From the human T2T-CHM13v2.0 reference genome, Homo sapiens: a DNA stretch of 64,000 bases. Made by a program: the position numbers and the translations under genes. Each line of letters opens with the position of its first letter. Within the stretch, counting starts at the first letter, position 1. This document shows positions 11,947-62,405 of this stretch, piece by piece. The notes below the pieces were generated by a model that made no database searches, was not told where the DNA came from, and saw nothing but the letters and a program-made list of their open reading frames with translations. Where the stretch lies: positions 11,296,001 to 11,360,000 of the forward strand of contig CP086569.2 in assembly GCA_009914755.4 (NCBI GenBank), read 5' to 3'.

Positions 11947-12514
<568 letters not shown>

Positions 12515-12679
12515 TGGTTACCAGAATTCTAAGTTCTGTTAGGGTCTGTTGCCAAGGAAGTGAGGTCACTTCTTTAAGGCTCTGTCCCCTTGGCCTCCTC
12601 CTTCCAGAAGACCTACTCAGGACCCCAGTGGGCTGCTGACTGCTCACCTTCCCCACAGGTCAACTCCTTACCTGTACAC

Positions 12680-15210: not shown

Positions 15211-17340
15211 CAGGTGGATACCTGGGCCCCAGTGGTCATCAGATCCTAGGAAACTCTCAGGCCCCAGGTGCACATAAAGCTACAGTGGCCACCTAGGCCA
15301 CAGGTTGATACACAGGGTCCAGGTGGACACTGGGTGCAAGATGAACACCAGGCCCCTGGTGAACACAAAGCCCCAGGTGTCTACCTAGTCCTCAAGTGGA
15401 CACCAGGCACTAGATTGACACACAGGTGCCAGGTGGATATCAGGCCGCAGGTGAACACCAGGCCCCAGGTGGTTGGGTTACTTATAGCATAGGTGGCCAT
15501 CAGGTCCCAGGTCTATATCCACTCCCCACCTGAAAATCAGGATCCAGGTGGATACCCATGTTCTAGGTGAACACCAGTTTCCAAATGGATATCAGGCTCC
15601 AAGTGAACACACAGGCCCCAGTTCAATACCAGCCTCAGGTAGACATCAGGACCCAGGTGGACCCCAGGCCCAATGTGCATGCCTAGTCTCTTGGAATACA
15701 TCATTTTCAAGGTGGACACCCAGATTCCTTGTAGACATCTGGTGCCAGGTGGATATCTGCCTGCAGGAGGACATCAGGCCCCAGGTGGACCCCAGGCCCA
15801 ACGTGCATGCCTAGTCTCTTGGAATACATCATTTTCAAGGTGGACACCCAGATTCCTTGTAGACATCTGGTGCCAGGTGGATATCTGGCTGCAGGAAGAC
15901 TTCAGGCCCCAGGTGGAGACTCAGTACACAAGTGTAAATCGGGCTCCAGTATTTCATCAGGCCCCAGTTAAACACTTGACTAAAGGTGTGCATCAAGACC
16001 CAGGTTGACACCCAGGCTTCAGTGCACACTAGGCCCAAAGTGTACACCTGTGCCAAGGTGGGCATCAGGCCCAAGGTGTACACCAGACTCCAAGTGGACA
16101 TCAGGTTGCAGGTTGACACCAGTCTCTAAGTAGATCCTTAAGCCCCAATTGGTCATCAGGCCCAAGGTGGATAGCTTGACCCCAGGAGGTCTCCAGGTCC
16201 CAGGCAGGCCTCAGGTGGACACTAAGCCCTAGATTAACACAAGGTCTGAGATGGTTTCAGCCCCTGTGTGGACTTTAGTCATAAGGAGCTTACTTAGGCC
16301 CTAAGTGGACATCAGGCCCCAGGTTGACACAATGAACCATGTAGAAGTCAGGCTCTAAGTAGACACCCAGGCCCTAGGTAAATACTTTGGTCCCAAGCCA
16401 ATATCAGGCCCTATGTGGGCACCCAGACTCCAGGCAGATGTCAGGCCCCAGGTGAACACTGAACTCAGGGTGGTCATCAGGCCCTAGGTTGACACATAGG
16501 CCACAGGTAGACAACAGGCGTAGGTGAACTTCAGGCTAAATATGAACGTCGGGCTCCAGGAAGAAGTCTGTGCCCCAGTTAAACACCGGGTCTTAGGTAG
16601 ACATCAGACCTCAAATGGATGCCCAGGCCCCAGGTGGATATAAGGCCTCAGGCAAACACCAGATCCCAGGTAGACATTAGACACAAGATGGACACTCAGG
16701 CCACAAGTGAACATCTGTTCCCAGATGGACATCCATCCCAAGGTGGACATCAGGCCAGAGATGTACACCCAGGCCCCAGGAGAACCCCAGGCCCCAGGAG
16801 GACACTCAAGCGCCAGAAGGACACCCAGTCCCTAGGTAACTAAAAGGCCCCAAGTGGACATGATGTTCCAGATGGATATGAGGCCCTAAGTGGATACTAG
16901 GCCCAGGTGGACCCCAGGTCTCAGGGGCACACCAGGACCCAGGGGAACACCAGGCCCTGGGTAAGCCTGCAGTCCCAGGTGGACATCAGGTGCCAGGAGG
17001 ACACCAGGACCTAGTTGGTCATCAAGCCACAGCTGAACACCAGTTCCCCATGAACACCAGTCCTCAGGTGGGCACCTAGTCCTCCCGTGTGCATCAGGTG
17101 CCAGGCTGACATAGGCACCAGCTGAACTCTGGGCCTCAGGTGAACATCAGATCCCAGGTTGTCACCCAGGCCCCAGGTGAACACCAGGTTTCAGGTGGAC
17201 ACGAGGTCCTAGGTGGATGTCTATGCTCCTAGTGAACCTCAGGCCCTAGTGGACACTCAGGCCCTTTATAGACATCTGGCTCCTTGTGCACTCCCAGCGC
17301 CCAGGTGGACATGAGACCCCAGAGGAAAACCAGTCCTTAG
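15211..17340 (-). repeat. Same 18-bp minisatellite in inverted orientation (core ~CCAGGTGGACATCAGGCC)
   Basis: At 15201-15220 the unit switches from ...cctgatgtcc to caggtggatacctgggccccagtgg...; the units from there on are the reverse complement of the upstream block. Confidence 0.9.
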
Positions 17341-17361
17341 TCATCTAAGACTGAATTCCCC

Positions 17362-17765
17362 TAGGGCTGGAGACTGAGTATTCACCTTGGGCCTAGGAAT
17401 CTACCTGGGGCCAGATGTTGATCTGGGGCCTGATGTCTACTCAGGTTCAGCTGTCCACTTAGGGTGGGGTGTTTTTCTGGGACCCAGAGTCTACCTGAAA
17501 TCTTGGTATCAACCTGGGGCCCATGTGTCCACTTGGAGTCTGATGTGCACTTGAAACCTGAATTTTCACCTAGGATCTGATGAGCACTTGGGGCGCAAGT
17601 TTCCATCTGAAAATCAGGCTCTAGTTATACGTCTGGGCCCCAGGTATACCCTGGACACCGAAAGAACTCCAGCCCCTATCTTAACATGATGTCCTAGGTG
17701 GATGCCCAGGTGTCATGTCTACATTAGGACTCAGGTAGACACAACTCCAGGCGGGCATCAGGCCT
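17362..17765. repeat. Short + orientation (17362-17608) then - orientation (17611-17765) blocks of the same minisatellite
   Basis: The + units read gggcctaggaatctacctggggccagatgttgatctggggcctgatgtctac; they are followed by - units ccaggtataccctggacacc...ctaggtggatgcccagg. Confidence 0.8.
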
Positions 17766-18137
17766 GATATTGGCTCTATGTCTCCACCCAAATCTCATGT
17801 TGAATCGTAATCCCCATGGGTTGAAGAAGGGGTGTGGTGAGAGGTGATTGAATCATGGGGGCAGTCTTCCCACTTGCTGTTCTCGTGATAGACTTCTTAT
17901 GAGATCTGGTTATTTGAAAGTGTGTAGCACATCCCCCTTCTCTCTCCCTCCTCCTCCCCCATGGTAAAAAGGGCTTGCTTGCTCTTGGCTTTATATCATG
18001 ATTGTAAGTGTCCCGGGCCCACCCAGTCATGCTCCCTATTAAGCCTGAAGAACTGTGGGTCAGTTAAACCTCTTTTCATCATAAGTTGCCCAATATCAGG
18101 TAGTTTTTTATAACAGTGTGAAAATGGACTAATACAA
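17766..18137 (+). mobile_element. Solo MaLR LTR (THE1/MST-like) inserted into the minisatellite
   Basis: tgatattggctctatgtctccacccaaatctcatgttgaatcgtaatccccatggg...ggtgattgaatcatgggggcagtcttcccacttgctgttctcgtgatag...ttataacagtgtgaaaatggactaataca. This matches the THE1 consensus at its start (TGATATGGTTTGGCTGTGTCCCCACCCAAATCTCA) and its end (AGCAGTGTGAGAACGGACTAATACA). Possible 5-bp target-site duplication AGGCC/AGACC. Confidence 0.8.
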
Positions 18138-18149
18138 GACCTTAGGATA

Positions 18150-21100
18150 ACAACCATGCTTCAGGCCATAGGTGGACATCTGGCTGCAACTGGACACTAT
18201 TCCCCAGGTGGATACCTAGGCTCAAGGTTGACATTAGTCCCCAGCTGAATACCTATGCCCTAAGTAGACATCAGGCCTCAGGCTGACACTCAGTCTAAGC
18301 TCAACATTAGGCTCAGGTGGACACCCAGACTCCAGGTGGATACTAGACCCCAGGGGTACACCAGACTCCTGGTAAGCATAAGTCCCCAGGAGGACACTAG
18401 AATCCAGTTGTACATAAAGCCACTGGTTGACTCCAAGCCCTCAGATGAACACCAGGCCAACTAGTGGACATTAGGCACATGAGAATACTTGGGCACCAGG
18501 CAGGTATCAGGCCCCGGGTAAACATCAAACTTCAGGTGGACATCGTTCTCCATGTAAACTCTAGCCCCAGCTAAACATCAGGCTCCAGGTGGAAGCCCAG
18601 ACCCCAGGTGCACTTCTGGCCACAGTTGGACATCTGTCCCCAGGTGAATATCAGACCATAGATGGATAGCAAGTCCCCAAGTGGACATCAGGTCAAAAGA
18701 GAATATAAGTCTCTAGGAAGACATCTGGCCCCAGGTGGATACTGAACTAGAGGCTTACATCAGACCCCAGATTGACATTCAATCCCCAGGTGGTCATGAC
18801 ACCTCAATTGGACACCAAGTCCTCAGGTTGATAACCAAGTCCCAGGTGGACACCACGTCAAATATGAACACAAGACCTAAGGTTGTCATTCAAGCCCCAA
18901 GTGGACACCAGGCCCTAGGTGAATAATATGACCCAGGGGATCATTGGGACCCAGCTGCATACCAGTCCCCAGGTTTACACGAGGCCCCCAGTAGGTTCCT
19001 AAGCTCTAGTTGGACATGAAGTCTCCAGTAGACACCCAGGACTAAGGTGGACATCAAGCATCAGATGGACGTCTGGCTGCGGATGAACATCAAGCCTCAC
19101 ATGGATACCTAGTCCGCAGGTAGGCATCAGGCCCCAGTTTGACATCAGTTTCTGGGTGGATCCTTAAGCCCCAGGTGGATATCCAGTCTCCAGCTGAACA
19201 TCAGCCCCTCATGGACGCCCAGTCCCCAGGTGAATATCATCAGGTCTCAGGTGAACACAAGTCCCCAGGCAGACATCAGACACCAGGTGTACACTCAGAC
19301 CCCAAGAGGACATCTGTCCCCAGGTTGACATCACTCTCAAGGTGTACATTAGGCCACAGATGTACACCCAGGTCCAAGGCAGACATGAGTCCCCAGTAAA
19401 ACTCAAGGCCCCAGGAGGATACTCAAGCCCTAGGTGGATGCCCACACCCCAGGTAATTACAAGGCCCCAGGTGGATACCAGATTCCAGATGAACATTAGG
19501 CCCCAAGTGGATACCTAGGCACCAGGTAGACACCAGGCTCCAGGTACATCCCCTGGTCTCAGGTGCACACTAGGTCCCCAGTGAACACTGGCTCCAGGTA
19601 AGCACCCAGTCCAAGGTAGACACCATGACCCAGGTGGTCATTAGGCCACAGCTGAACACCAATCTTGAGTGAACACCATATCCCAGGTGGTACCTAGTCT
19701 CCAGGTGGATATTGGGCCCCACGTGGACACCCAGCCCCCAGGTGAACATCAACCTTCAGGTGGACATCATGCCTCAGGTGAACTCCGGGTCCCAGCCCAG
19801 CTGAACATCAGGCTGCAGGTGGATGCCTAGGTTCCAGGTGCACAACAGGTCACAGCTGGACATTCAGCCCCAGGTGAACAACAGACCATGGGTGGATAAA
19901 CAGTCCACAGGTGGACATCAGGTCAAAGGTGAACATCAGTACTCAGGTGGACATCAGGCTCCAGGTTGACATTAAGCCCAAGGTGGACACTGAACTAGAG
20001 GTTTACACCAGGCCCCAGGTTGACACCCAGGCTCAGGTGGACATTGGGCCCCAGGTGGTTACCTAGGCCCCTAGTAAACCTCAGATTCTAGGTTGTCATT
20101 CAGGCCCCCAGTAGTCATTTGGCCCCATGTGGACACTCAGGCGCCAGGTTCACATGATGTCTTAACTGGACACCAAGGGGCCAGTTTGATACCCAAGTCC
20201 TGTGTGGGTGCCAGGTCCAGGGTTACACTCAAGCCCCAAGTGGACACCAGGCCCTAGGTGAATAACACAACCCATGTGGTCATTAGGCCCCAGAATGACA
20301 CCAGTCCCCAGGTTAACAGGAAGCCCCCAGTGGGCACCTATGCCCCAGCTGGACATCAGGCCTAAAGTGGACACCCAGGATCAAGATGGACATCAGGACT
20401 CAGGTGGACATCTGGTGACAGGTGGACATCAAGCCTGATGTGTACCTTGTCCCCGGGTGGTCATCAGGCCCCAGTTCAACACCAGTCCCTGGGTGGATTC
20501 CTCGGCTCCAAGTGGACATCCGGTCTTCAGCTGAACATCAGACCCCAGGTGAACACCAGGACTTAGGTGGACATTAGGCCCCTGGTGGACATAAAGTACC
20601 AGTGGACATCCATGCTGCAGGTGGACAACAAGGGCCCAGATGGGCATCAGGCCCCATTTGGACATTGAGTCCCCAGGTGGATATCAGGCCTCAGGGTGAA
20701 CCCAAGGTCCAACATAGACATCAGGCCTTAGGTTGACACTCAAGCACCAGATGGACTGCTGCACCTAAGCAGAAAATAAACCCCTATCTGGATATCTAAG
20801 ATACATGTATACAACAAGCTCCAGACTGACATCCAGACCCCAGGTGGACACCATACCCCAGGTGAACAGCAGGCAACAGTTTGGCACCAAGTACCTAAGT
20901 GAAACAAAGCCTTAGGTGATTACCAGGCCATAGGTAGTCATTAGTCTCCAGCTGGACAATAGTCCCTAGGTGGATACCTAGGCCCCAGGTGGACACTAGA
21001 CCCCAAATTAACACAAAAACCAAGTAAAAAATCAAGCCCCAAGTGGACAACCAGTCCCTAGGAAAATACACAAATCTCAAGCTGACACCAGGCCCTATTT

Positions 21101-21900
21101 GGACACCCAAGCCCTAGGTGGACTTCAGGCCACAGGTGAACACTGAACTCTAGAAGGTCTTCAGGCCCTGTGTTGACTACCTGGCCCCAGGGGGACACCA
21201 GGCATAGATGAACTTCAGCCACCAGCTGTACATCAGGTTCCAGGCAAATGTCCAGGCCCCAGGTGGATATCAAACCTCAGATGAACACCAGGCCCCAGGT
21301 AGACATCACAAACTAAGTGGACACTCAGGCCCCTATTGAATATCCATCCCCAGGTGGACATCCATCCCAAGGTGGACATGAGGCCACAGATGTACACTTA
21401 AGCCTAAGGCAGACCCCAGGCCCCAGGAAAACTCCAGGCTCCATGAGAGCACTCAGACCTCAGGTGGATGCATTGGTCCTAGGTAAATACAAGGCCCCAG
21501 ATAGACATCAGGCCCCAGTGAACACCAGAGCCCAGGTGGGTACCTAGTCCCCAGGTGTGCAACAAGCAGAAGGTTGACCCAGTCCTCAGCTGAACTCTGG
21601 GACCCAGCTGAACATCATAACCCAGATGGTCACTCAGGCTCCAGGTGAACACACGGTCTTAGGTAGACATCAGGTCCCACATGAACACCCAAGCCCCAGG
21701 TAGATATCAGGCCTTAGGTGTACACCAGACCTCAGGTGGGCATCTGGCTCCAGATGGCCGTAGGTGGATAACTAAACCTCTCATGGATATCAGGCCCCAG
21801 GTAGACACCAGGCTCCAGGCGAACATCTAGCCCCAGGGGGACATCCAGCCCCTGGTGAACATCAGGGCTCACATGGATAAACAGTTTACAGATGGACACC
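18150..21900 (-). repeat. 18-bp minisatellite, - orientation block (continues to the boundary with the 190-bp satellite)
   Basis: Units read ccaggtggacatcaggcc / ccaggtggatacctaggc... Confidence 0.93.
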
Positions 21901-21902
21901 TG

Positions 21903-24900
21903 CCACAGGTGCCTCACCTCTACTCCCTGAAACCTCACTTCCCCTCATGGGCCTTCTGTCCGACTTGGGGTACCCCTAGCCACCCTAGGCACACAGTGGA
22001 CTCGAACCAGGGGTGCCAGCGTCCCTGGGGCTCAGCACAAGGGTTCATGGGAATACACTTTCGTCCGTGGGGGACCCAGTCCTCACTTCTCGGCGGCGCA
22101 TTTTTTTTTTTCTCTGCCCCAGGTGCCTCACCTTCCCCTCATGGGCCTTCTGTCCACCTTGGGGTACCCCTAGCGGCCCGAGGCATACCCTGGGCTCGAA
22201 CCAGGGATGCCAGGGTCCCCGGGGCGCAGCGCAAGGGCTGATGGGGAGACACTTTCTTCCGTGGGGGACCCAGGCCCCTCTTCTCTGAGGCGCTTTTTTT
22301 TTTTTCTCTGCCCCAGGTGCCTCACCTTCACCTCATGGGCCTTCTGCCCGCTTTGGGGTACCCCTAGCGGCTCGAGGCACAAGCTGGGCTCGAATAAGGG
22401 TCGCCAGGGTCCCCGGGGCCCAGCGCAAGGGTTGATGGGACGACACTTTCACCCATGGGGGACCCAGGCCCCGCTTCTCCGCAGCGCAGTTTTTTTTTTT
22501 ATTTGCCCCAGGTGACTCACCTTCCCCTCATGGGCCTTCTGTCTGCTATGGGTTACCCCTAGCAGGCCAGAGGCGCACCCTGGATTCCAGCCAGGGATGC
22601 CAGGGTCCCCGGGGCCCAGTGCAGGGGCTGATGAGAAGGCACTTTCGTCCGTGGGGTACCCAGGCCCTGCTTCTCTGTGGCGCGGTTTTATTTTTTTCTT
22701 TTCTGCCTCAGGTGCCTTACCTCTCCTCCCTCAAACCTCAGCTTCCCCTCATAGGCTTTCTGCCCGCCATGGGGTACCCCAAGAGGCCCGAAGCGCACCC
22801 TTGTCTTGAACCAGGGGTGCCAGGGTCCCCTGGGCCCAGCTCAGGGGCTGATGGGAAGACACTTTCGTCCGTGGGGGAACCAGGCCCCGCTTCTCCGCGG
22901 CACAGTTTTTTTTTTTTTTCTGCCTCAGGTGCCTCACCTTCCCCTCATGGGCCTTCTGCCCGCTTTTGGGTAACCCTAGTGAGCCCAAGGCGCACCCTGG
23001 GCTCGAACGAGGGTCGCCAGGGTCGACGGGGCCCAGCGCAGGGGCTGATGGGAAGGCACTTTCATCCGTGGGGGACCCAGGCCCCGCTACTCCGTGGTTC
23101 GGTTTTTTTTTTTTCCTCTGCCCCAGGTGCCTCACCTTTCCTCCCTCAAACCTCACCTTCCACTCCTGGGCTTTCTGCCTGCGTTGGAGTACCCCTAGCG
23201 ACCCGAGCGCACCCTGGGCTCGAACCAGGGATGCCAGGGTCCCTGGGGCCCAGTGCAGGGGCTGATGGGAAGACACTTTCGTCTGTGGGGGACCCAGGGC
23301 CCGCTTCTCGGCGGCGCGGTTTTTTTTCTCTGCCCCAGGTGCCTTACCTTCCCCTCAGGGGCCTTCTGCCTACGTTGGGATACCCTAGCAGTCCCGAGGT
23401 GCACCCTGGGTTCAAACCAGGGACGCCAGTGTCCCCAGGGCCCAGCGCAGGGGCTCATCGGAAGGCACTTTCTTCCGTGGGGTACCCAGGCCCCGCTTCT
23501 AGGCGGAGCGGTTTTTAATTTTTTTCTGTGCTCCAGGTGTCTCACCTTCCCCTCATGGGCCTTCTGCCCGCCTTGGGGTACCCCTAGCAGGCCGAGGCGC
23601 ACCCTGGGCTCTAACCAGGGACACCAGGTTCCACAGGCCCAGCTCAGGGGCTTATGCGAAGACACTTTCGTCTGTGGGGGACCCAAGCTCTGCTCCTCTG
23701 CAGGGTTGTTTTTTTTTTTTTTTTTCTCTTCCCCAGGTGCCTCACCTTCCCTTCATGGGCTTTCTGCCCGCCTTTGGGTACCCCTAGCGGGCCCGAGGCT
23801 CACCCTGGTTTCGAGCCAGGGATGCTAGTGTCCCCGGGGCCCAGCGCAGTGCTGATGGGAAGGGACTTTTGTCCGTGGGGAACCCAGGGCCCACTTCTCC
23901 GAGGTGAGCTTTTTTTTTTTCTGCCGCAGGTGCCTCACCTCTCCTCCCTCAAACCTCACCTTCCCCTCATGAGCCCTCTGCCCGCCTAGAGGTACCGCTA
24001 GCGGCCCGAGGCACACCCTGTGGCTGAACCAGGGACGCCAGGGTCCCTGCGGCCCAGCACAGGCGCTGATGGGAAGACACTTTCGTTCGTGGAAGACCCA
24101 GGCCCCGTTTCTCAGTGGCGCGGTTTTTTTTCTCTGCCCGGGTGCCTCACCTTCCTCTAATGGGCCTTTTGCCCGCTTTGGGGTACCCCTAGCGGGCCCT
24201 ATTCGCACCCTGCGCTCGAACCAGGGTCGCACCACGAGGTCCAGCGCAAGGCCTGATGGGAAGGCACTTTCGTCAGTGGGGGACCCAGGCCCCGCTTCAC
24301 TGCGGCGCGTTTTTTTTTTTCTGCCACAGGTGCCTCACCTTCCCCTCATGGGCTTTCTGTCCACCTTGGGGTACCCCCAGAGGTCCGAGGCGCACCCTGG
24401 GCTCAAACCAGGGAAGCCAGGGTCCCTGGGGCCCAGCACAGCATCTGATGGGAAGGCACTTTCTTCCATGGGAAACCCAGGCCTCCCTTCTCCGTCGAGA
24501 GGTTTTTTTTTTTTCCTCCGCTCCAGGTGCCTCACCTTCCCTTCATGGGCTTCTGCCCACTTTGGGGTACTGCTAGCGGCCCGAGGCGCACACTGCGTTC
24601 GAACCAGGGTCACCAGGGTCCACGGGGCCAAGCGCAGGGGCTAATGGTAAGGCGCTTTTGTCTGTGGGGGTCCCAGGACCCCCCTCTCCGTGGCGCATTT
24701 TTTTTTTTTCTTTTTTCTGCCACAGGTGCCTCACCTCTCCTCCCTCAAACCTCACCTTCGCCTCATGGGCCTTCTGCCTGCCTTGGGGTACCCCTAGCGG
24801 CCCGAGGCGAACCCTGGGGTCGAACCAGGGACGCCAGGGTCCCTGGGGCCCAGTGCAAGGGCTGATGGGAAGATACTTTCTTCCATGGGAGCCCAGGCAC

Positions 24901-26977
24901 CGCTTCTCCGCGGCGCATATTCTTTTTCTTTCGGCTGCCCCAGGTACCTCACCTTCCCCTCATGGGCCATCTGCCTGCTTTGGGGTACTCCTAGTGGAGC
25001 GAGGCGCACCCTGGGCTCGAACCAGAGTCATCAGGTTCCCTGACGCCCAGCGCAAGGGCTGATGGGAAGACACTTTCGTCTGTGGCGGACCCAGGCCGCG
25101 CTTCTCAGCGGCGCGGTTTTTTTTTTTCTTGCCACAGGTACCTCACCGCTCCTCCCTCAAACCTCAACCTCCCCTCATGGGCTTTCTACCTGCCTTGGGG
25201 TACCCCTAGCGGCCCAAGGCACACCCTGGGTTTGAGCCAAGGTCGCCAGGGTCCACGGGGCTCAGCACAGGGCCTGATGGGAAGGCACTTTCGTCTGTGG
25301 GGGCCCATGCCCTGCTTCTCCGTGGCTCGGTTTTTTTTTTCCTTCCTGCCACAGGTGCCTCACCTCTCCTCCCTCAAACCTCACCTTCCCCTCATGGCCC
25401 TTCTGTCTGCCTTGGGGTACACCTAGCAGCCCGAGGTGCACTGTGGGCTCGAACCAGGGACTCCAGGGTCCCTGGGGCCTAGCGCAAGGGCTGATGGGAA
25501 GACACTTTCGTCCGTGGGGGGGGGGGGTACCCAGTCCCCGCTTCTCCGTGGCGAGGTTTTTTTTCTTTTTCTCTGCCCCAGGTGCCTCACCTTCCCCTCA
25601 TGTGCCTTCTGCACGCTTTGGGGTAACCCTAGCGGCCCAAGGCGCACCCTGGGATCGAACAATGGAAGCCAGGTTCCACGAGGCCAAGCGCAGTGGTTGA
25701 TGGGAAGACACGTTCTTCCTCGGGGACCCAGGCTCTGCTTCTCTGCGGCGTTTTTTTTTTTTCTTTTCCCCAGGTGCCTCACTTTCCCGTCATGGGCTTT
25801 CTGCCCGCCTTGAGGTACCCCTAGCGGGCCCGAGGCGCACCCTGCTTTCGAGCCAGAGATGCTAGGGTCTCCGGGGCCCAGTGCAGGGCTGATGGGTAGG
25901 GACGTTCGTCCGTGGGGGACCCAGGCCCCACTTCTGGGCGGCGCAGTATTTTATTTTTTTCTCTGCCCCAGGTGTCTCACCTTTCCCTCATGGGCCTTCT
26001 GTCTTGGGGTACCCCTAGCAGGCCGAGGCGCACGCTGGGCTCCAGCCAGGGATACCAGGGTCCCCAGGGCGCAGTGCAAGCGCTGATGGGAAGACAGCTT
26101 CTTCTGTGGGGGACCCAGGCCCCACTTATCCGCGGCGCGGTTGTTTTTTGTTTTTTTCTCTGCCCCACGTGCATCACCTTCCCCTCATGGGCCTTCTGCC
26201 CGCTTTTGGGTACACCTAGCGGCCTGAAGCACACCCTGGTCTCGAACCAGCTACGCCAGGGTCCCCTGGGCCCAGCGCAAGGGCTGATGGGAAGACACTT
26301 TCGTCCGTTGGGGACCCAGGCTCCGCTTCTCCGTGGTGCAGTTTTTTTTTTTTTTTTCCTGCCACAGGTGCATCACCTCTCCTTCCTCAAACCTCAACTG
26401 CCCCTCAGGGATTTCTGCCCGCCTTGGGGTACCCCTAGCAGGCCCGAGGCGCACCCGGGGCTCGAACAGGGTCTCCAGTGTCCACAGGGCCCAGCGAAGG
26501 GACTGATGGGAAGGCATTTTCATCCGTGGGGGACCCAGGCCCAGCTTCTCCTAGGCGCGGCTTGTTTTTTTTTTTTTTTTTTCTGCCACAGGTTCCTCAT
26601 CTCTCCTCCCTCAAACGTCAACTTCCCATCATGGGCTTTCTGCCCGACTTGGGGTACCCCTAGCAGCCAAAGGCGCTCCCTGGACTCGAACCATGGATGC
26701 CAGGGTCGCCTGGGCCCAGTGCAGGGGCTGATGGGAAGGTACCTTCATCCGTGGGTACCCAGGCCCCGCTTCTCAAAGCTGCGGTTTTTTTTCTCCACCC
26801 CAGGTGCCTCACCTTCCCCTCATTGGCCTTCTGCCTGCTTTGGGGTAACACGAGCGGGCCCGAGGCACTCCTGGGTCTCGAACCAGGGTCGCCAGGTTCT
26901 CGGGGCTAGCGCAGGAGCTGATAGGAAGGCACTTTCATCAGTGGGGACCCAGGCCCGGCTTCTCCAAGGCGCTGATA

Positions 26978-27011
<34 letters not shown>

Positions 27012-28539
27012 CTGCCACAGGTGACTCACCTCTCCTCCCTCAAATCTCACCTTCCCCTCATGGGCTTTCTGGCTTCCTTAGGGTACCCTAGCGTGCCGGA
27101 GTCTCTTCTGGTCCTTGAACTAGGGTCGCCAGGGTCCAGGAGGCCCAGCGCAGGGGCTGATGAGAAGGCACTTTCGTCTGTGGGAGACCCAGGCCCCACT
27201 TCTCCTCGGCACGTTTTTATTTTTCTGCCGCAGGTGCATCACCTCTCCTCCCTCAAACCTCACCTTCCCCTCATGGGCCTTCTGCCTGCTTTGGGGTACA
27301 CCTAGCGGGCCCGAGGTGCACCCAGGCCTAGAACCAGGGTCGCCTGGGTCCACGGGGCCCAGCGCAGGGACGGATGGGAAGGCACTTTTTTTCCATGGGA
27401 GACCCAGGCCCCGCTTCTCCGTGGCGTGGTTTCTTTTTCTTTTCTGCCACAAGTGCCTCACCTCTCCTCCCTCACAGCTCACCTTCCTCTCATGGGCTTT
27501 CCACCGCTTTGGGGTACCCCAAGTGGCCCAAGGCTCTCCCTGAGCTCAAACCAGGGACCCCAGGTTCCCCGGTGCCCAGCGCAGGGGCTGATGGGAAGAC
27601 ACTTTCATCCGTGGGGGACCCAGGCCCCAGCTCTCCACTGCGCGGGTTTTTTTTTCTTTGTCTGTGACAGGTGCCTCACCTCTCCTGCCTCAAAACTCAC
27701 CTTCCCCTCATGGGCTTTGTGCGCCCAAAGCCCCACTTGGGGTGCACTTAGCGGCTGAGGCACACCCTGAGCTCGAACCAGGGACACCAGGGTCCTCGGT
27801 CCCAGTGCAGGGACTGATGGGAAGACACTTTGTCCGTGGGGCGCCCAGGCCATGCTTCTCCGCAGCAAAGTTTTTTTTTTCTCTGCCCCAGGTGCCTCAC
27901 CATCCCCTTAGGGGCTTTCTGCCCACCTTGGGGTACCCCTACTGGCCCGAGGTGGACCCTGGGGTCAAACCAGGGATGCCAGCGTCCCCAGGGCCCAGCG
28001 AAGGGGCTGATGGGATGGCACTTTCATCCGTGGGGGACCCAGGCACTGCTTCTTGGTGGCGCATTTTTTTTTCTCTGCCTCAGGTGCCTCACCTTCCCCT
28101 CATGGACCTTTTGTTCGCTTTGTGGTACCCCAAGCGGTCCCGAGGCGCACCCTGGGCTCGAACCAGGGTCGCCAGGGTACACCAGGCCCAGCATAGGGCC
28201 TGATGGGGAGGCACTTTCATCCGTGGTGGACCCAGGCCCCACTTCTCTGAGGTGCGGTCCTCTTTTTTTTTTTTTTTTTTTTCTGCCCCTGGTGCCTCAC
28301 CTCTCCTCCCACAAACTTCAACTTCCACTCATGGGGCTTCTGTCCGAGTTGGGGTACCCCTAGTCGCCCGAGGCGCACCCTGGGCGCTAACCAGGGATGT
28401 CAGAGTCCCTGGGGCCCAGCGCAAGGGCTGATGGGAAAAAACTTTCGTCGGTGGATGACTCAGACACCGCTTCGCGGCGCATTTTTTTTTTTCTTTGCCC
28501 CAGGTGTCTCACCTTCCCCTCATGGACCTTCTGACTTTC
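21903..28539 (+). repeat. GC-rich satellite, ~190-bp unit (about 34 copies; about 14 copies are a ~210-bp variant with an extra tctcctccctcaaacctcac segment)
   Basis: Unit consensus CTCTGCCCCAGGTGCCTCACCTTCCCCTCATGGGCCTTCTGCCCGCCTTGGGGTACCCCTAGCGGCCCGAGGCGCACCCTGGGCTCGAACCAGGGACGCCAGGGTCCCCGGGGCCCAGCGCAGGGGCTGATGGGAAGACACTTTCGTCCGTGGGGGACCCAGGCCCCGCTTCTCCGCGGCGCGG(T)8-18. Each unit ends in a T-run, and the minus strand carries GGTTCGAGCCC (tRNA B-box) within a CCCTGG-TTCGAGC-CCAGGG stem-loop. Confidence 0.95.
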
Positions 28540-28870
28540 TGCACCTGCTCCGGCGCTGTGGGCCCCCCTGCGCCTGCGCCGGCGCTGTGCACCTTTGCGA
28601 GGGCGGAGCTGCATTCTTCCCAGCACCCACACGGAGAGCATCGCCAGGGCGGAGCTGAGTTCTCCTCTGCACACACTTCGGAGATACAGCAAAGGCGGAG
28701 CAGTGTTCTCCTCAGCACAGACCTGGGCAGGCTGGGGTCTCCGTGAGGGCGGAGCTGCGTTCTGCTCAGCATAGACCCGGGGGACGCCGCGAAGGCAGAG
28801 TAGCGTTCTCCTCAGCACAGACCTTGGGGGCACTGACTCGCTTTGGGACAACTCGGGGCCGCATAGACGG
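28540..28870 (+). promoter_or_regulatory. CpG-rich island within the subterminal block; candidate TERRA-type (subtelomeric) promoter oriented toward the TTAGGG array
   Basis: High CpG density is visible (ccggcgctgtgggcccccctgcgcctgcgccggcgctg..., gacgccgcgaagg). Human TERRA promoters are established to be subtelomeric CpG islands containing the 29-37-bp repeats of this same family, so promoter function here is inferred by homology only. Confidence 0.3.
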
Positions 28871-29246
28871 TGAATAAAATCCTTCCTGTTTGCAGCCCTG
28901 AGTAATCAGGGTCGGCGACCAGTTAGAAGGGTTCAGTGTGGAAAACGGGAAACCAAAAGCCCCTCTGAATCCTGCCCACCGAGGTTCTCCCCAGCCAAGG
29001 CGAGGCAGCCGCAGTGCGAGATCCACACCGCAGCCTCAGAAGACAAATGCAGCATTCCTAATGCAGACATGACACCCAAAATATGACACCCCCATTGCTC
29101 ATGTAACAAGCACCTGTAATGCTAATGCACTGCCTCAATACAAAAATATTAATATAAGATCCGCAATCCCCTTGCTGCCATGCAGTCCTAAGACAGAGAT
29201 CATAATAATCAACATTGACATAGTCAATACAAACGTAGTAACGAAC
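28540..29246 (+). repeat. Subterminal (telomere-adjacent) repeat block of the TAR1 family, including five 47-53-bp tandem repeats at 28601-28842
   Basis: gggcggagctgcattcttcccagcac.../gggcggagctgagttctcctctgcacac.../ggcggagcagtgttctcctcagcacagacc.../gggcggagctgcgttctgctcagcatagacccggg.../ggcagagtagcgttctcctcagcacagacc. From memory these are the reverse complement of the sequence immediately proximal to (CCCTAA)n at the GRCh37 chr1 p-arm start (ctgtgctgaggagaacgcaactccgcc...), and gcattcctaatgcagacatgacacccaaaatatgacacccccattgctcatg resembles telomere-adjacent sequence at several chromosome ends. Confidence 0.7.
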
Positions 29247-29554
29247 CTAGGGTTAAGGCTGGTGTTAGGGTTAAGGGTTAGGGGTTAAGTTTAGGGTTAG
29301 GAGTTGGAGATAGGGGTTGGGGTCAGAGTTAGGAGTTAAGAGTCAATGTTTAGAGTTAGGGGTTAAGAGAGGTTAGGGGTTAGGGATAAGGGGTTAGGGT
29401 TGGATTAGTGTGAGGGTGAGAGTTGTGGTTAGGGGTTAGGCTTAGGGGTTACAGTTAAGGGTTAAGGGTTAGGGTTAGGGGTTAGGGTTAGGGTCAGGGG
29501 TTAGGGGTCAGGGGTTAGGGGTCAGGGTCAGGGGTCAGGGTCTGGTTCAGGGGT
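29247..29554 (+). repeat. Degenerate interstitial telomeric repeat array, (TTAGGG)n-like on the + strand
   Basis: ctagggttaaggctggtgttagggttaagggttaggggttaagtttagggttagg...ggttagggttaggggttagggttagggtcaggggttaggggtcaggggttaggggtcagggtcaggggtcagggtc. Confidence 0.95.
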
Positions 29555-32099
<2,545 letters not shown>

Positions 32100-32100
<1 letters not shown>

Positions 32101-32245
32101 GTGAGGAACAACCAAATTGTTTTCTGCAGCAAGGGCATCATTTTCTATTCCTAGCAGCCAGTTCATGAGGGCTCCAACTTCTCCACCTCCTTAGCAACAT
32201 TTATTTTCTGTGTCATTGTTATGAAAGCCTTACTTGTGGGTGCAG
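32100..32245 (-). mobile_element. ~145-bp L1 ORF2 (Cys-rich region) fragment; a near-identical direct duplicate of 33460-33610
   Basis: ctgcagcaagggcatcattttctattcctagcagccagttcatgagggctccaacttctccacctccttagcaacatttattttctgtgtcattgttatgaaagccttacttgtgggtgcagagtggcat is about 90% identical to 33483-33610. Confidence 0.85.
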
Positions 32246-32289
32246 AGTGGCATGAATGAAGTCAATTAACATGTTTATTACCTCACAGA

Positions 32290-33455
32290 ATAGTTACCTT
32301 TTTGTGTGCATGTGTGGGATAAGAAAACTTAACCCTATCCCCTGTGACTGAATAGTGGCCATTCCAGCTGCTCCAGGCTCCGGCAGAGGAAGACCAGGGT
32401 AGGTGGCTCCACCAGGGTGACCCTCAGGTCTGGCGCTCACGCATTCCAGAAGCCACCCAGACCATGCTCCCCTGCCTGGGCGCCCAAGCTGCAGTCGCCC
32501 TCTGTGTGCAGGCAGCAGCTGCCTGGCAACCCCCGAGCCCACTCGCGCTCCCACCATCGCAGAACCAGGGCCAGGTGTCCCAGTGGCTGCGGCCAAGCCA
32601 GGCATTCTGCCCTGCGGCAGCAGCTGCACAGGAGCGAGAACTGAGAACCCACCGCTCAACCCCACATGGGGTGACTGCCGAGTGCCCATACAAACGGCTC
32701 TGATCTCCCTCAGGTGGAGGAGTGGGCGGGAGGCACGGCCTGGGGGGCCCTCAGCCTGGGCGCGCTGGGTAGATCCCAAGGCCAACCAGGCCACGCACCT
32801 CCAGCTCGCCTGGGCACCCGAGCTGCAGCCGCCTTCTGCGTGCAGGCAGCAGCCTCCAGGCAACTCCCGAGCCAGCCCACACTCCCCACATCTCGGATGC
32901 AGGGCCAAATGTCCCTGTGGCTGTGGCCAAGCCAGGCGGTCTGTCCTGCAGCAGCTGCACAGGGGCGGTAACCGGCCCTCAGCCCCATCCCCGGTGGCTG
33001 CAGAGGGCCCCTGGATAGAGATCTGGAGCTATGGCAGAGGAGGAGACGGGTGGGGGCAGGGTCTGGCAGGCTCTCAGCCCAGGGGTACCCGCGATCCAGA
33101 GGCCGCCCAGGGTATGCTCCACCAACTGGGTGCCCAGCTACAGGCGCCGGGCAACTCTCAAGCTGGCTGGCGGTCCCAGCCTCGCAGAACCGGGGCTAGA
33201 TGTCGCCGTGGCTGCGACCAAGCCAGGCGGTCTGCCCGGGGGCGGCTGCACCGGGGCAGGAACCGACCCTCAGCCCCATCCCCGGTGGCTGCAGACGGCC
33301 CCTGGGGTGGCCCCGATCTCTCTTCGGAGGAGAAGAGGGGCGGGAGTCACGGCCAGGCGGGCCCTCAGGCAGGAAGGGATGCGCGCCTGCGATTCCGGGA
33401 CGTCCCGCGCCAGCCCAGGAGAACCCGCAAGCCAGCGGCGCCTGTTTCTCTGTGT
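32290..33455. repeat. CpG-rich ~1.2 kb block made of three ~320-330-bp tandem units (VNTR-like); identity unknown
   Basis: The repeating anchor appears at 32471-32540, 32804-32873 and ~33123: ...cagctcgcctgggcacccgagctgcagccgccttctgcgtgcaggcagcagc...cccgagcc... ...gtggctgcggccaagccaggc...ctgcacagg... CpG density is high, especially at 33060-33455. Confidence 0.85.
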
Positions 33456-33459
33456 GATT

Positions 33460-35870
33460 CTTTGAGGAACCACTAAACTGATTTCCACAGCAAGTGCATC
33501 ATTTTCTATTCCTAGCAGCCAGTTCATGAGGGCTCCAGTTTCTCCACCTCCTTAGCAACATTGATTTTCTGTGTCGTTGTTACGAAAGCCTTACTAGTGG
33601 ATGCAAAGTGGCATCTCATTTGGGTTTTGTCTTGCATTTTATTAATGAATAACGGTGTTTAGCATCTTTTCTTGTCCTTCTTAGACATTTGTGTATCTTC
33701 TTTGGTGAAATGTCTATTCAAGTCCTTTGCCTATTTTTTAATTGGGATCTTAGAAATTCTGTTGTTGAGTTGTGGGATATTAAGCTTTTATCAGATTCAC
33801 ACTTTGATTTTATCAGATACATATATTCTCACATATTATGGGTTGTCTTTTCACTCCCTTGATAGTATCCTTTGATGCATAAAGGGTTTTTATTTTGATT
33901 AAATCTAATTTTCGTGTATTTTCTTTTGTTATCTGTGCTTTTCTGTCATATTTCAAAATACACTTAAAACTGAAAGGTCATAAAGGTTTACCGTGTGCTT
34001 TCTTCTAAGAGTTACATATTTTTAGTCCTTACATTTAAGTCTTTTATTAATTTAGAATTAATTTTTGTATATACTGCAAGGTAGGGGTCTAACTTCTCTC
34101 TTGTGCACTGACATCCAGCTGTTGAAGAGACTGTTCTTTCCTCCCTTGACTAGATTTGGCCACCTTGTTGAACAGTCACCTTGTTGAACAGACTAACTTG
34201 TAGGATCTCAAATCTATTCTATTGTATTTGTCTGAAAGTCTATTGGTCTTATTCCAGTACCATACTCTCTTGATTACTGTAGATTTGTAGTAGGCTGTGA
34301 AACTGAAAAAATGTGAGTTTTCCAATGTTCTTTTTCAAGACTGTTTTGTCTGTGAGATCCTTTGAATTTTTGTATGATTTTAGAATGAGTTTCTTTGTTT
34401 CTGCAAAAATGCCTTTGGGAGTTTGATGGTATTGCATTGAATCTGTAGATTACTTTAGATGGTATTGTCATCTTAACAATATTGTCTTACAACCCGTGAA
34501 CACAGAATGTCTTTCCACTTATTTCCACTCTCTTTAGTTTTTTTCAGCAAAGTTTTTGTATACCACCACGGTTAGATTTATGCCTGAATAACGTATTCTT
34601 TGATGTCATTATAAATGGAATTTTTAAAATGTTTTCATAGTTCTTTACAACTATATAGGAATATAGCTCATTTGCCTATGTTTGTTTGCATCCTGCCTCT
34701 TTTATTAGTTATAATCCATTTTGTGTTTTGTTTGGAGCTTTGTACCCATAAGATCATGTGTAGATATAATTTTACACCTATTTTTTATTTCCAATTTAGA
34801 TGCCTTTTATTTCTTTGTCTTGCCTAATTGCTCTGGCTAGAACTGCCAGTGCTACGTTGAATACAAGTGGCAAATGCACTATCCTTTTCTTCTAGATGTT
34901 AGAAAAACAGCTTTCAGTGTTTCATCATTGATCATGATATTAACTGTTGGGTTTTTGTACATCCCATTGTCATGTTGCAGAAGATCCCTTCTATGCTTAG
35001 TTTATTGAGTATTTTTATTATAGAAGGGTGTTGTATTTCATCAATGTTTTCTCTGCATCAATTGAAATCATCACGTGCTTATTCATTTTACTTTTACAGC
35101 ATATTACACTGATTGATTTTTTATATGTTGAACCACCCTTGCATTTTGGGGATAAATCTCAAAGGGTGATAGTTTACAATCCTTTGATTATACGGTATTG
35201 CTGCTAGTATTTTGCTAGTATTGCTAGTATTTTGCTGAGATTTTTGCTTATATATTCATAAGGGATATAGTGCTGTATTTCTCTTGTGCTCTCTTTGTCT
35301 TTGGTATGAGGATAATGCTGTTATCAAAAAATGAATTAACAAGTATTCCTTCTTCATATATTTTGTCAGAAGAGTTTGAGAAGAAATGGTATTAATTATT
35401 CTTTAAATGTTAGGTTGACTCACCACTTAATGCAGCTATTTGGTCACAAATGTTTCTTTGTTAATCGCTTTCGATTACTAATTCAATCTCCTAGGTTATA
35501 GGTCTGTTCAGATTTTCTCTTTCTTCTTGAGCCACTTTGGTAGTTTGTGTCTTTCTAGCGATTCATCCATTTCATCCAGGGCACTTAATTTGTTGCTAGA
35601 CAGTTGTTCACAGTATACTCCTGTAATCCTTTTGTATTTCTGTAAAGTTGGTTGTAATGGCTCTGCTTTCATTTATTATTTTAATAATTAGTCTTCCATC
35701 TTTTGCTCAGTCAATATAGTGAAAGGCTTGATCTTTCAAAGAATCCACATTTTTTCATTCTACTGCTCTCCAATCTTCTATTTTATTGATTTATGCTCTA
35801 ATTATGTTCTTTATTATTTCTTTCCTTCTGCTAGCTTTGGATTTAGTCTTCCACCTGAATTTATTTTGGG
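33460..35870 (-). mobile_element. Older L1 (L1M/L1PB-type) ORF2 region in antisense
   Basis: Antisense ORF2 runs from the Cys-rich region (33460-33610) through the 34274-34471 ORF (...KVIYRFNAIPS...) and the RT region (ctggctagaactgccagtgctacgttgaatacaagtggc at ~34830). It reaches ~35870 (tttccttctgctagctttggatttagtcttcc). Confidence 0.9.
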
Positions 35871-58395: not shown

Positions 58396-58700
58396 TTTCT
58401 CTGATACAGACCACCCTTGGTCAATTGAATACAGATCAATCACTTTAAGTAAGCTAAGTTCTTACTAAATTGATGAGACTTAAACCCACGAAAACTTAAC
58501 AGCTAAACTCCCTAGTCAACTGGTTTGAATCTACTTCTCCAGCCGCTGGGGGATAAAAGGTGAGAGAAGCAGGATTGAAGCTGCTTCTTTGAATTTACAA
58601 TTCAACGTGAAAATCACCTTGGGACTGGTAAAAACAGGCCTTGACCTCTGTTTTTAGATGTACAGTCTAATGCCCTACTTAGTCATTTTACCCTTTTTTC
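58396..58700 (+). pseudogene. mt tRNA cluster-derived sequence (tRNA-Ala/Asn, OriL, tRNA-Cys/Tyr region; NUMT)
   Basis: ...atcaatcactttaagtaagctaagttcttactaaattgatgagacttaaacccacgaaaacttaacagctaaactccctagtcaactggtttgaatctacttctccagccgctggggg...gaagctgcttctttgaatttacaattcaacgtgaaaatcacc... is collinear with human mtDNA between ND2 and COX1. Confidence 0.85.

Positions 58701-59774: not shown

Positions 59775-62405
<2,631 letters not shown>

What the first reader, a model, noticed from the sequence alone, without database searches (positions are those of the whole stretch)
28540..29554. Interstitial subtelomere/telomere junction: TAR1-family subterminal sequence running into a degenerate (TTAGGG)n array
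The + strand carries, in order, five 47-53-bp GGCGGAGCTGCGTTCTCCTCAGCACAGACC-type repeats, a ~400-bp subterminal unique segment (..gcattcctaatgcagacatgacacccaaaatatgacacccccattgctcatg..), and ~300 bp of degenerate TTAGGG / TTAGGGG / TCAGGGG units. This is the order and orientation seen at real chromosome ends, with the telomere to the right. Here the array is internal and is followed by 35 kb of L1, Alu, pseudogene-fragment and satellite DNA. Such islands mark ancestral chromosome ends or subtelomeric duplicon boundaries.
Basis: partly seen in the sequence, partly recalled or inferred. Interest (0 to 1): 0.8.

Follow-up and report, generated by a model that had tools for sequence, protein, structure and literature searches.

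The report
Fossil chromosome end inside a duplicated segment
This is a roughly 1-kb relic of a primate chromosome end (the promoter-like repeats next to a telomere plus the first ~300 bp of the telomere) fused to a broken L1 element and then copied to many genomic sites; it is a well-documented kind of sequence, so the call is correct but ordinary.

Summary
On the + strand lie two 29-bp units (28535-28593), five 46-54-bp GGCGGAGC...CAGCACAGACC units (28600-28830), 274 bp of 'pre-tel' sequence (28831-29104), a 143-bp extra segment (29105-29247) and a 308-bp degenerate TTAGGG/TTAGGGG/TCAGGG(G) array (29248-29555). The array then abuts an antisense L1 ORF2 fragment.

Published primers for real human chromosome ends map here collinearly, in the right orientation, with 1-3 mismatches (ChIP-F 5); the background is 5-9. 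Nine human-derived metagenome contigs with the canonical 61-29-37 end structure align to 28535-29104 at about 82% and then run straight into telomere repeats.

About 25 other contigs share the window's whole structure. At least 15 carry the same array|L1 junction, so that junction formed once and was then duplicated. Two contigs keep the same array but grade into canonical TTAGGG. One joins the array to different DNA.

The 61-bp and 29-like tracts are absent. This matches the interstitial TERRA-like promoters next to internal telomeric arrays already catalogued in T2T-CHM13 (67 loci, 55 lacking the 61-bp tract). Novelty: already known. Interest is low.

The parts
21933..28534 (+). Left flank: CpG-rich tandem array of 195-219-bp units, each with a poly-T run. 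It ends abruptly against the 29-bp units. It is co-duplicated with the block in about half of the related contigs.
   Evidence: TRF. BLAST chains of L002, L011, L016, L019, L023, L024, L030 and L034 run through it. It is unrelated to the canonical chromosome-end contigs and has no copy elsewhere in the window.
28535..28593 (+). Two '29-bp repeat' units, the core TERRA-promoter repeat. Both contain CCGG; only the second keeps GCGCCTGCGC, an NRF1-like motif.
   Evidence: Direct repeat with 29-bp spacing. The 3' part of the published 29-bp-repeat oligo OT maps at 28564-28580 with 3 mismatches. The units align to the 29-bp tracts of chromosome-end contigs. CCGG lies at 28550 and 28579 and the NRF1-like site at 28570. 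PMC6600276 states that every 29-bp repeat carries an HpaII site and an NRF1 site.
28600..28830 (+). Five 46-54-bp GGCGGAGCTGCGTTCTCCTCAGCACAGACC-type units, the tract the literature calls the '37-bp repeats'.
   Evidence: the repeat finder family D1. Primers sub3 (3 mismatches, 28662-28681) and ChIP-R (1 mismatch at 28705-28725; 2 at 28759 and 28805) map here. All five units align one-to-one with those of chromosome-end contigs.
28831..29104 (+). 'Pre-tel' segment, the conserved single-copy sequence that lies directly next to the telomere at canonical chromosome ends.
   Evidence: Primers TF, ChIP-F, TR, 10qF and Subtel2 map at 28892-28989 in the correct order and strand with 2-5 mismatches. 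Identity to end contigs L017, L009 and L003 is 82.7-82.9%, and in those contigs telomere repeats start right after ...CTCATG(T/G).
29105..29247 (+). AT-rich 143-bp segment between the pre-tel and the array. It is absent from the canonical ends sampled and present in every window-like copy. It may be the 'spacer' that Santagostino et al. describe at 5p, 6q, 7q and 12q; this is not verified.
   Evidence: Alignments.
29248..29555 (+). Interstitial telomeric array: degenerate TTAGGG, TTAGGGG and TCAGGG(G) units with the G-rich strand on +. It is more regular towards the right and is truncated at the L1 junction.
   Evidence: TRF and unit parse with shuffles. The same degenerate units are conserved position by position in paralogous contigs. 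In L024 and L034 the array continues for at least 300 bp and grades into canonical TTAGGG.
29554..29556 (.). Breakpoint between the telomere array and L1: GGGGTT|CCACTCTG in the window, GGGGTC|CCACTCT in the paralogs. There is 0-2 bp of possible microhomology.
   Evidence: The same junction occurs in 15 contigs by motif search, and in four more by alignment. An uninterrupted L1 copy in L029 shows what L1 reads across this point.
29556..30914 (-). Right flank: an L1 ORF2 fragment in antisense orientation that breaks at about ...RVNRQ(L/P)T(E/T)W. An Alu-like insert lies at about 30291-30464. The 3' part of this L1 is missing from the window.
   Evidence: Pfam RVT_1, E=7.7e-9, on 30501-30953(-). 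L011 and L022 lack 30291-30464.

Best explanation
The block 28535-29555 is a relic of a real chromosome end. It consists of the distal part of a TelBam3.4/TAR1-type subterminal element (29-bp repeats, '37-bp' repeats, pre-tel, an extra 143-bp segment) followed by the variant-repeat-rich first ~300 bp of its telomere.

In an ancestor, the proximal variant region of that telomere was joined end to end to a break inside an L1 ORF2. The join was probably non-homologous, with at most 2 bp of microhomology, and it turned the telomere into an internal array. The fused segment was then spread by segmental duplication into a multi-copy family, and the window holds one somewhat diverged copy.

Today it is mostly decaying, probably germline-methylated DNA. 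At most it may act as a weak 'iTERRA' promoter reading into the array and as a low-affinity TRF1/TRF2 binding site.

Shown: the homology and orientation relative to real ends; the shared junction in many copies; the array inherited unit for unit; sister copies whose arrays run on into canonical TTAGGG or into different DNA.
Inferred: that the ancestor was terminal; the end-joining mechanism; the order of events; any present activity.
For: (1) Eight published primers or oligos designed on real human ends map collinearly at 28564-28989 on the expected strands. Seven have 1-3 mismatches and ChIP-F has 5; next-best sites and eight control primers have 5-9.
(2) Class B contigs (L003, L004, L007, L008, L009, L013, L017, L032, L035) carry the 61-bp, 29-like and 10q primers at 0-3 mismatches (sub2 4-5 in most). 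They align to 28535-29104 at about 82%. At least seven of them (L003, L004, L007, L008, L009, L013, L017) then run into telomere repeats at the contig end.
(3) About 25 class A contigs share the window's structure. They are 96.4-97.9% identical to the window over 28828-29440, with the same degenerate units in the same positions.
(4) The identical array|L1 junction is present in at least 15 contigs from many samples. The flanking L1 is co-duplicated out to at least 32.1 kb.
(5) L024 and L034 have the same left side, but their arrays continue for at least 300 bp and become canonical TTAGGG at the contig end. L023 has the array joined to different, mariner-like DNA at another position.
(6) No L1 ORF2 sequence lies anywhere left of the junction, so the block is not a simple insertion into an L1.
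(7) Ten of 29 conserved CpGs are lost in the window, seven of them as TG or CA.
Against: - The related contigs are short-read metagenome assemblies of contaminating human DNA. They are probably collapsed consensus sequences of paralogs, so copy numbers and fine phylogeny are unreliable.
- Whether L024 and L034 are present-day telomeres or just longer internal arrays cannot be told.
- No contig is more than 98% identical to the window, so the window's own locus, and even its species, is not established.
- The microhomology estimate depends on one other L1 copy and on my recollection of the L1 consensus.
- No expression, methylation or protein-binding data were available for this copy. It keeps only two 29-bp units, one of them decayed.
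Confidence: 0.85

Rival explanations
1. This very locus is the founding site: an ancestral chromosome end or fusion point that sits where the event happened, and the other copies derive from it.
For: The window is the outlier of the family. It is 2.1-3.6% from every sampled copy, while most of those copies are 97-100% identical to each other. That is compatible with an older or founder copy.
Against: Any single copy of a family of at least 15 is a priori unlikely to be the founder. The outlier status is equally explained if the contigs are collapsed consensus sequences of high-copy subfamilies. The left flank (the 195-bp array) and the right flank (L1) are both co-duplicated, so nothing singles this copy out.
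Confidence: 0.07
2. The array is a 'short ITS' (short interstitial telomeric sequence): telomeric repeats added by telomerase or captured during double-strand-break repair inside otherwise unrelated DNA.
For: This is the commonest origin of human interstitial telomeric sequences (10.1101/2025.05.15.654290).
Against: The array is about 308 bp long and highly degenerate. It is contiguous with 570 bp of subterminal sequence in the native orientation. Its variant units are shared with copies that continue into canonical telomere repeats.
Confidence: 0.01
3. The array|L1 junction is an assembly artefact, a false join of a telomere-containing read to an L1.
For: Telomeric and subtelomeric repeats are classic sites of misassembly.
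Against: The same junction, to the base, occurs in at least 15 independently assembled contigs from different samples.
Confidence: 0.02
4. Functional overlay, not exclusive of the origin story: the copy is an active interstitial TERRA (iTERRA) unit. The 29-bp repeats drive RNA polymerase II transcription through the pre-tel into the UUAGGG-like array.
For: Transcription was detected from all tested interstitial loci flanked by TERRA-like promoters, and array length correlates with expression. The region 28535-28830 still has GC 0.66 and CpG observed/expected 0.65, with one intact NRF1-like site.
Against: Only two 29-bp units remain and one has lost its CpGs. Ten of 29 conserved CpGs are gone, mostly by deamination-type changes, which suggests long-term germline methylation. 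No expression data exist for this copy.
Confidence: 0.25

Closest known systems
[quoted passage not shown]
   Same: The element order is 29-bp repeats, 37-bp repeats, pre-tel and then an internal telomeric array. The 61-bp tract is missing. The locus belongs to a multi-copy duplicated family, and satellites lie nearby, as expected for pericentromeric or acrocentric locations.
   Different: I could not check the locus against their Supplemental Table S3, which is not held. The 143-bp segment between pre-tel and array is not mentioned for type K in the text. The window may not be from CHM13, or even from human.
Canonical 61-29-37 TERRA promoter, i.e. TelBam3.4/TelSau2.0 and the TAR1 subterminal repeat at real chromosome ends (Brown 1990 and Nergadze 2009, as summarised)
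   Same: The 29-bp units carry CCGG and an NRF1-like motif. There are five '37-bp-tract' units and a pre-tel, all oriented towards the TTAGGG strand, at about 82-83% identity.
   Different: There are no 61-bp or 29-like tracts. Only two 29-bp units are present. An extra 143 bp precedes the array. The array is internal and truncated, and the CpGs are partly decayed.
The 2q13-q14 ancestral telomere-telomere fusion site
   Same: TAR1-type sequence flanks degenerate internal telomere repeats.
   Different: The fusion site has head-to-head TTAGGG/CCCTAA arrays with a TAR1 on each side. Here there is one array, no CCCTAA and no inverted partner.
Degenerate internal (TTAGGG)n islands at subtelomeric duplicon boundaries (Flint 1997 and Riethman and colleagues; from my own knowledge, not checked here)
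   Same: A degenerate array several hundred bp long marks a boundary between two unrelated blocks of duplicated DNA, oriented as a former end.
   Different: Whether this window lies in a subtelomere, a pericentromere or an acrocentric short arm could not be determined.
Short ITSs inserted at double-strand breaks
   Same: Internal TTAGGG-like repeats.
   Different: Those are short, nearly exact and flanked by unrelated unique DNA. This array is long, degenerate and attached to subterminal sequence.

Membership tests
TAR1 / TelBam3.4-type subterminal element (61-29-37 TERRA promoter family) | Tract of 29-bp repeats, each with an HpaII site (CCGG) and an NRF1 motif | tested here: met
   Two units lie 29 bp apart. 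CCGG is at 28550 and 28579 and GCGCCTGCGC at 28570. They align to the 29-bp tracts of end contigs. Only two units are present and the first is decayed.
TAR1 / TelBam3.4-type subterminal element (61-29-37 TERRA promoter family) | '37-bp repeat' tract distal to the 29-bp repeats | tested here: met
   Five units at 28600-28830. Primers ChIP-R and sub3 map there. The units align one-to-one with those of end contigs. The period here and in the end contigs is 46-54 bp, not 37.
TAR1 / TelBam3.4-type subterminal element (61-29-37 TERRA promoter family) | Conserved pre-tel segment between the last 37-bp-tract unit and the telomere | tested here: met
   Primers TF, ChIP-F, TR, 10qF and Subtel2 map collinearly. 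The whole aligned element, 28535-29104, is 82.7-82.9% identical to the end contigs; the literature range for the pre-tel is 65-100%.
TAR1 / TelBam3.4-type subterminal element (61-29-37 TERRA promoter family) | 61-bp repeats (CTCF-binding) and 29-like segment proximal to the 29-bp repeats | tested here: not met
   Primers sub1, sub2 and PR reach only background (5-7 mismatches) anywhere in the window. In the canonical end contigs sub1 is at 0-3 mismatches, and in L017 all three are at 0. A 195-219-bp array lies there instead. Absence is the rule for interstitial copies (97 of 106).
TAR1 / TelBam3.4-type subterminal element (61-29-37 TERRA promoter family) | Significant alignment to the Dfam/Repbase TAR1 consensus | not testable with these tools
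   No repeat library was available. Membership rests on homology to contigs and primers from TelBam3.4-family ends.
Subtelomere-derived interstitial telomeric sequence | Several hundred bp of degenerate TTAGGG variants, contiguous with subterminal sequence and oriented as at a real end | tested here: met
   308 bp holding 21 T[TC]AGGG, with G:C = 145:15. It lies directly distal to the pre-tel and the extra segment.
Subtelomere-derived interstitial telomeric sequence | Internal position: non-telomeric DNA continues beyond the array | tested here: met
   L1 (RVT_1) follows, with 34 kb further of repeats and satellites. The junction is confirmed in at least 15 independent contigs. The chromosomal position itself is not testable.
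Fusion ITS (2q13-q14 type) | Head-to-head TTAGGG and CCCTAA arrays with inverted subterminal elements on both sides | tested here: not met
   No CCCTAA in 29001-30000. No second or inverted copy of the block in the window.
Short ITS (telomerase or double-strand-break repair insertion) | A short, near-perfect (TTAGGG)n tract inserted into otherwise continuous unrelated sequence | tested here: not met
   Only two TTAGGGTTAGGG dimers occur in 308 bp. The left flank is subterminal sequence, not the other half of the L1.
Active TERRA / iTERRA transcription unit | Unmethylated CpG-island promoter and transcripts reading into the UUAGGG tract | not testable with these tools
   Only sequence proxies are available: GC 0.66 and CpG observed/expected 0.65 over 28535-28830, with 10 of 29 conserved CpGs lost.

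The most novel reading that the evidence does not exclude
The family preserves three states of one and the same telomere-proximal array: running on into canonical TTAGGG (L024, L034), joined to L1 (the window and at least 15 contigs), and joined to unrelated mariner-like DNA at a different repeat (L023). If the first state is a living telomere and the other two are independent captures, then one particular chromosome-end type was internalised at least twice. That would make it a recurrent telomere-capture source. The window, as the most diverged copy, could then be close to the founder of the L1-joined lineage and might still feed the iTERRA pool.
Probability: 0.2. Interest if true: 0.35.

Novelty: already known. 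Interest (0 to 1): 0.15.

Why it matters
Internal relics of chromosome ends record past end-joining and duplication events. They also mark unstable, duplication-rich regions such as pericentromeres, acrocentric short arms and subtelomeres. According to recent work they contribute a sizeable share of telomeric-repeat RNA. This copy adds nothing new in kind. In a complete reference it would already be annotated as TAR1 plus (TTAGGG)n, and it falls within a catalogued class of 67 loci. Its only modest value is as a clean worked example: one junction formed once and was then copied, and sister copies show alternative fates of the same array.

Tried and rejected
- Scans of viral contigs and genome contigs with GAATCCTGCSCACCGAGRTTCTC found nothing. 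Two of the 38 metagenome hits (L005, L021, from soil) are chance matches with no other homology.
- Exact-protein look-ups of three window ORFs, tried in order to locate the source contig or species, found nothing.
- Rfam at gathering threshold gave only a marginal tRNA hit far away. Rfam at E<=1 over 27400-29700 and 30200-30700 gave nothing meaningful, so the Alu call rests on my own reading. ARAGORN found no tRNA, so the 'GGTTCGA'-like motif in the 195-bp unit is not a tRNA.
- Pfam gave nothing for the GC-rich ORFs at 32.3-33.5 kb or for other ORFs.
- Nergadze 2009 and Baird 2000 are not held, and the supplements of the key preprint are not held. The reference Xq promoter sequence, the locus table and the 'spacer' sequence could therefore not be compared directly.
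- The published 12q-STELA primer has 2-3 mismatches in every contig, so none of them is 12q, and the idea that L024 and L034 are the 12q end is unsupported. Three primers I recalled from memory (15q F and R, '12q-197A') were mapped but are not used as evidence, because I could not verify them.
- The TELO-composite ('ajax' 49-bp array plus 'teucer') of Hoyt et al. was considered. The period is similar to that of the 46-54-bp units, but no sequence was available to test it.
- The hypothesis that the block was inserted into an L1 was rejected, because the missing L1 3' part is nowhere in 1-29552.

Full report
OBSERVATION

The repeat finder places five GGCGGAGC...CAGCACAGACC units at 28600, 28646, 28692, 28746 and 28792, with spacings of 46, 46, 54 and 46 bp.

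From 29248 TRF reports a degenerate array with periods of 6, 7, 13 and 32-33. The kilobase 29001-30000 holds 15 of the window's 29 TTAGGG and no CCCTAA. The 314-bp stretch contains 21 T[TC]AGGG. In 100 dinucleotide shuffles of the window the per-shuffle maximum for any 314 bp averaged 2.8 and never exceeded 5. The stretch has 145 G against 15 C. It becomes more regular towards its right end, where TTAGGG, TTAGGGG and TCAGGG(G) units dominate. The block occurs once in the window and has no inverted partner.

IS IT SUBTERMINAL SEQUENCE OF REAL CHROMOSOME ENDS?

No human genome or repeat library was available, so I used two independent substitutes.

The first substitute was published oligonucleotides designed on real ends. 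The TERRA-promoter and TERRA primers for Xq/Yq/15q/16p/9p come from PMC6600276 Table 1. The 10q TERRA primer comes from PMC4218956. The 'Subtel2' primer of the telomere-fusion assay comes from PMC2847243. They map collinearly and on the expected strands:
- OT 3' part at 28564-28580, 3 mismatches
- sub3 at 28662-28681, 3 mismatches
- ChIP-R at 28705-28725, 1 mismatch, plus 2 mismatches in two further units
- TF at 28892-28912, 3 mismatches
- ChIP-F at 28909-28929(-), 5 mismatches
- TR at 28923-28943(-), 3 mismatches
- 10qF/Subtel2 at 28967-28989, 2 mismatches

The next-best sites for these primers, and the best sites for eight unrelated control primers, have 5-9 mismatches. The primers for the 61-bp repeat (sub1), the 29-like segment (sub2) and the sequence just upstream of the 29-bp tract (PR) find only background.

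The second substitute was one scan of public metagenome contigs with GAATCCTGCSCACCGAGRTTCTC. It returned 38 contigs, 36 of them primate DNA that contaminates microbiome assemblies. Nine contigs form class B: L003, L004, L007, L008, L009, L013, L017, L032 and L035. These carry the 61-bp, 29-like and 10q primers at 0-3 mismatches (sub2 4-5 in most); L017 matches sub1, sub2 and PR exactly. Class B contigs therefore have the canonical 61-29like-29-37-pre-tel structure of human ends. They align to window 28535-29104 at 82.7-82.9%. At least seven of them then run directly into telomere repeats at the contig end, right after ...CTCATG(T/G). The orientation, with the telomere to the right, is also confirmed.

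WHAT IS DIFFERENT FROM A CANONICAL END?

- The element is cut off proximally. At 28534/28535 it abuts a 6.5-kb CpG-rich tandem array of 195-219-bp units (21933-28534) where the 29-like and 61-bp tracts should be.
- Only two 29-bp units remain. Both contain CCGG, but only the second keeps the NRF1-like GCGCCTGCGC. PMC6600276 states that every 29-bp repeat carries these sites.
- Between the pre-tel and the array lie 143 bp (29105-29247) that the canonical ends lack. Santagostino et al. describe a 'spacer' in that position at 5p, 6q, 7q and 12q. I could not obtain its sequence, so the equivalence is only a possibility.
- Ten of 29 CpGs conserved in the relatives are lost in the window, seven of them as TG or CA. 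This is the signature of long-term germline methylation.

THE JUNCTION AND THE FAMILY

Right of 29555 the minus strand encodes L1 ORF2. Pfam RVT_1 hits 30501-30953(-) at E=7.7e-9. The L1 breaks at about ...RVNRQ(L/P)T(E/T)W. Its 3' part is missing, and no ORF2 sequence occurs anywhere in 1-29552. The block is therefore not a simple insertion into an L1.

About 25 contigs (class A) share the window's whole architecture. They are 96.4-97.9% identical to the window over 28828-29440. They have the same 143-bp segment and the same degenerate array units position by position. So the array's degeneracy was inherited and did not arise locally.

Fifteen contigs carry the identical junction...GGTTCAGGGGTC|CCACTCT..., and four more align across it. 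The co-duplicated flank reaches at least 32.1 kb on the right and 25.3 kb on the left. Some copies lack the Alu-like insert at about 30291-30464 (L011, L022), so duplication continued on both sides of that insertion.

The junction therefore arose once and was propagated by segmental duplication. Comparison with an uninterrupted L1 copy in L029 leaves 0-2 bp of possible microhomology, which is compatible with non-homologous end joining. That mechanism is an inference.

SISTER STATES

L024 and L034 come from two independent assemblies. Both have the 195-bp array, the subterminal element and the same proximal array. Where the window turns into L1, they continue for at least 300 bp of variant repeats that grade into canonical TTAGGG at the contig end. 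This is the pattern of a telomere's proximal region; whether these copies are truly terminal cannot be told.

Other variants exist:
- L023 has the array joined to unrelated, mariner-like DNA at a different repeat.
- L015 and L037 have the pre-tel cut at 29046 and joined to an inverted copy of the window's 12.5-22.9 kb region.
- Several copies have other left flanks, starting at 28535-28557.

The block is thus a module in a patchwork of duplications.

MOST LIKELY HISTORY AND FUNCTION

A chromosome end of this type lost capping or met a break. Its proximal telomere was joined to a broken L1, and the product was then duplicated many times. The window holds one diverged copy.

Present-day function, if any, would be weak transcription into the array (iTERRA) and low-affinity shelterin binding. 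Only six YTAGGGTTR sites and two TTAGGG dimers remain. The preprint reports transcription from every tested interstitial locus of this kind, but nothing here tests this particular copy.

COMPARISON WITH WHAT IS KNOWN

Santagostino et al. [quoted passage not shown] These loci lie in segmental duplications concentrated at pericentromeres, subterminal regions and acrocentric short arms, and the authors interpret them as derived from subtelomeres by recombination. The window fits that description feature for feature.

It is not the 2q13-q14 fusion site, because there is no head-to-head array. It is not a short break-repair insertion of telomeric repeats.

LIMITS

- The related contigs are short-read metagenome assemblies and are probably collapsed paralog consensus sequences.
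- None exceeds 98% identity to the window, so the locus and even the species remain undetermined.
- The Dfam TAR1 consensus, T2T mapping, and expression and methylation data were out of reach.

VERDICT

The kind of element is already known, so interest is low.

Noticed in passing
window 12849-21863: About 9 kb of 18-bp/37-bp minisatellite (TCCACCTGGGGCCTGGTG). It is written on the + strand up to about 15135 and as its reverse complement (CCAGGCCCCAGGTGGACA) from about 15258 on, so two blocks face each other. Contig L015 matches 12459-22939 at 85-95%, inverted relative to a truncated copy of the subterminal element.
   Followed up: partly
window 21933-28534: A 6.5-kb CpG-rich (observed/expected about 0.45-0.5) tandem array of 195-219-bp units, each with a 10-20-nt poly-T run. 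I could not name it. It has no tRNA or Rfam match, is unrelated to the 61-bp/29-like tracts, and is co-duplicated with the subterminal block in about half of the related contigs.
   Followed up: partly
window 32290-33460, flanked by 32102-32253 and 33463-33614: Four GC-rich tandem units of about 290-335 bp sit inside old L1 sequence, bracketed by a 152-bp direct repeat at 90% identity. Long stop-free frames occur on both strands but have no Pfam match. In contig L029 this segment lies inverted and directly left of the subterminal element.
   Followed up: partly
window 53760-57388 and 60712-62404: A 74-76-bp satellite with a palindromic core (ATATCACAGGGGGTGTACACCCCCTGTGATAT). There is a 148/220-bp higher-order period at 61552-62404, and the orientation appears to flip between blocks. 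I suspect a gamma-satellite/SATR-type pericentromeric repeat, from memory only.
   Followed up: no
window 58626-58692 (-): A marginal Rfam tRNA hit (31.1 bits against a gathering score of 29, E=0.016) that ARAGORN does not call. It is probably a tRNA-derived relic or a chance match.
   Followed up: partly
window 30291-30464: An Alu-like antisense insert with a poly-T lead-in inside the L1. It is present in most paralogous contigs but absent from L011 and L022, so the family was duplicating both before and after this insertion. Rfam gives no SRP/7SL match, so the Alu call rests on my own reading.
   Followed up: partly
L024 1-420 and L034 1-420 (minus strand): Two independent contigs in which the same subterminal structure and proximal array continue into TGAGGG, TAAGGG and TTAGGG variants and then canonical TTAGGG up to the contig end. 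This is either a living telomere of this end type or a much longer internal array.
   Followed up: partly
L023 2270-3108: An alternative distal junction: the array ends at ...GGGTTAGGGTTAAG|AAAGCTGG and is followed by unrelated DNA that includes mariner-transposase-like antisense sequence. This is a second, independent truncation of the same array.
   Followed up: partly
window 28828-29440 against L001-L038: The window is 2.1-3.6% from every window-like contig, while most of those are 97-100% identical to each other. Either the contigs are collapsed consensus sequences of high-copy subfamilies and the window is a divergent singleton, or the window comes from another ape.
   Followed up: partly
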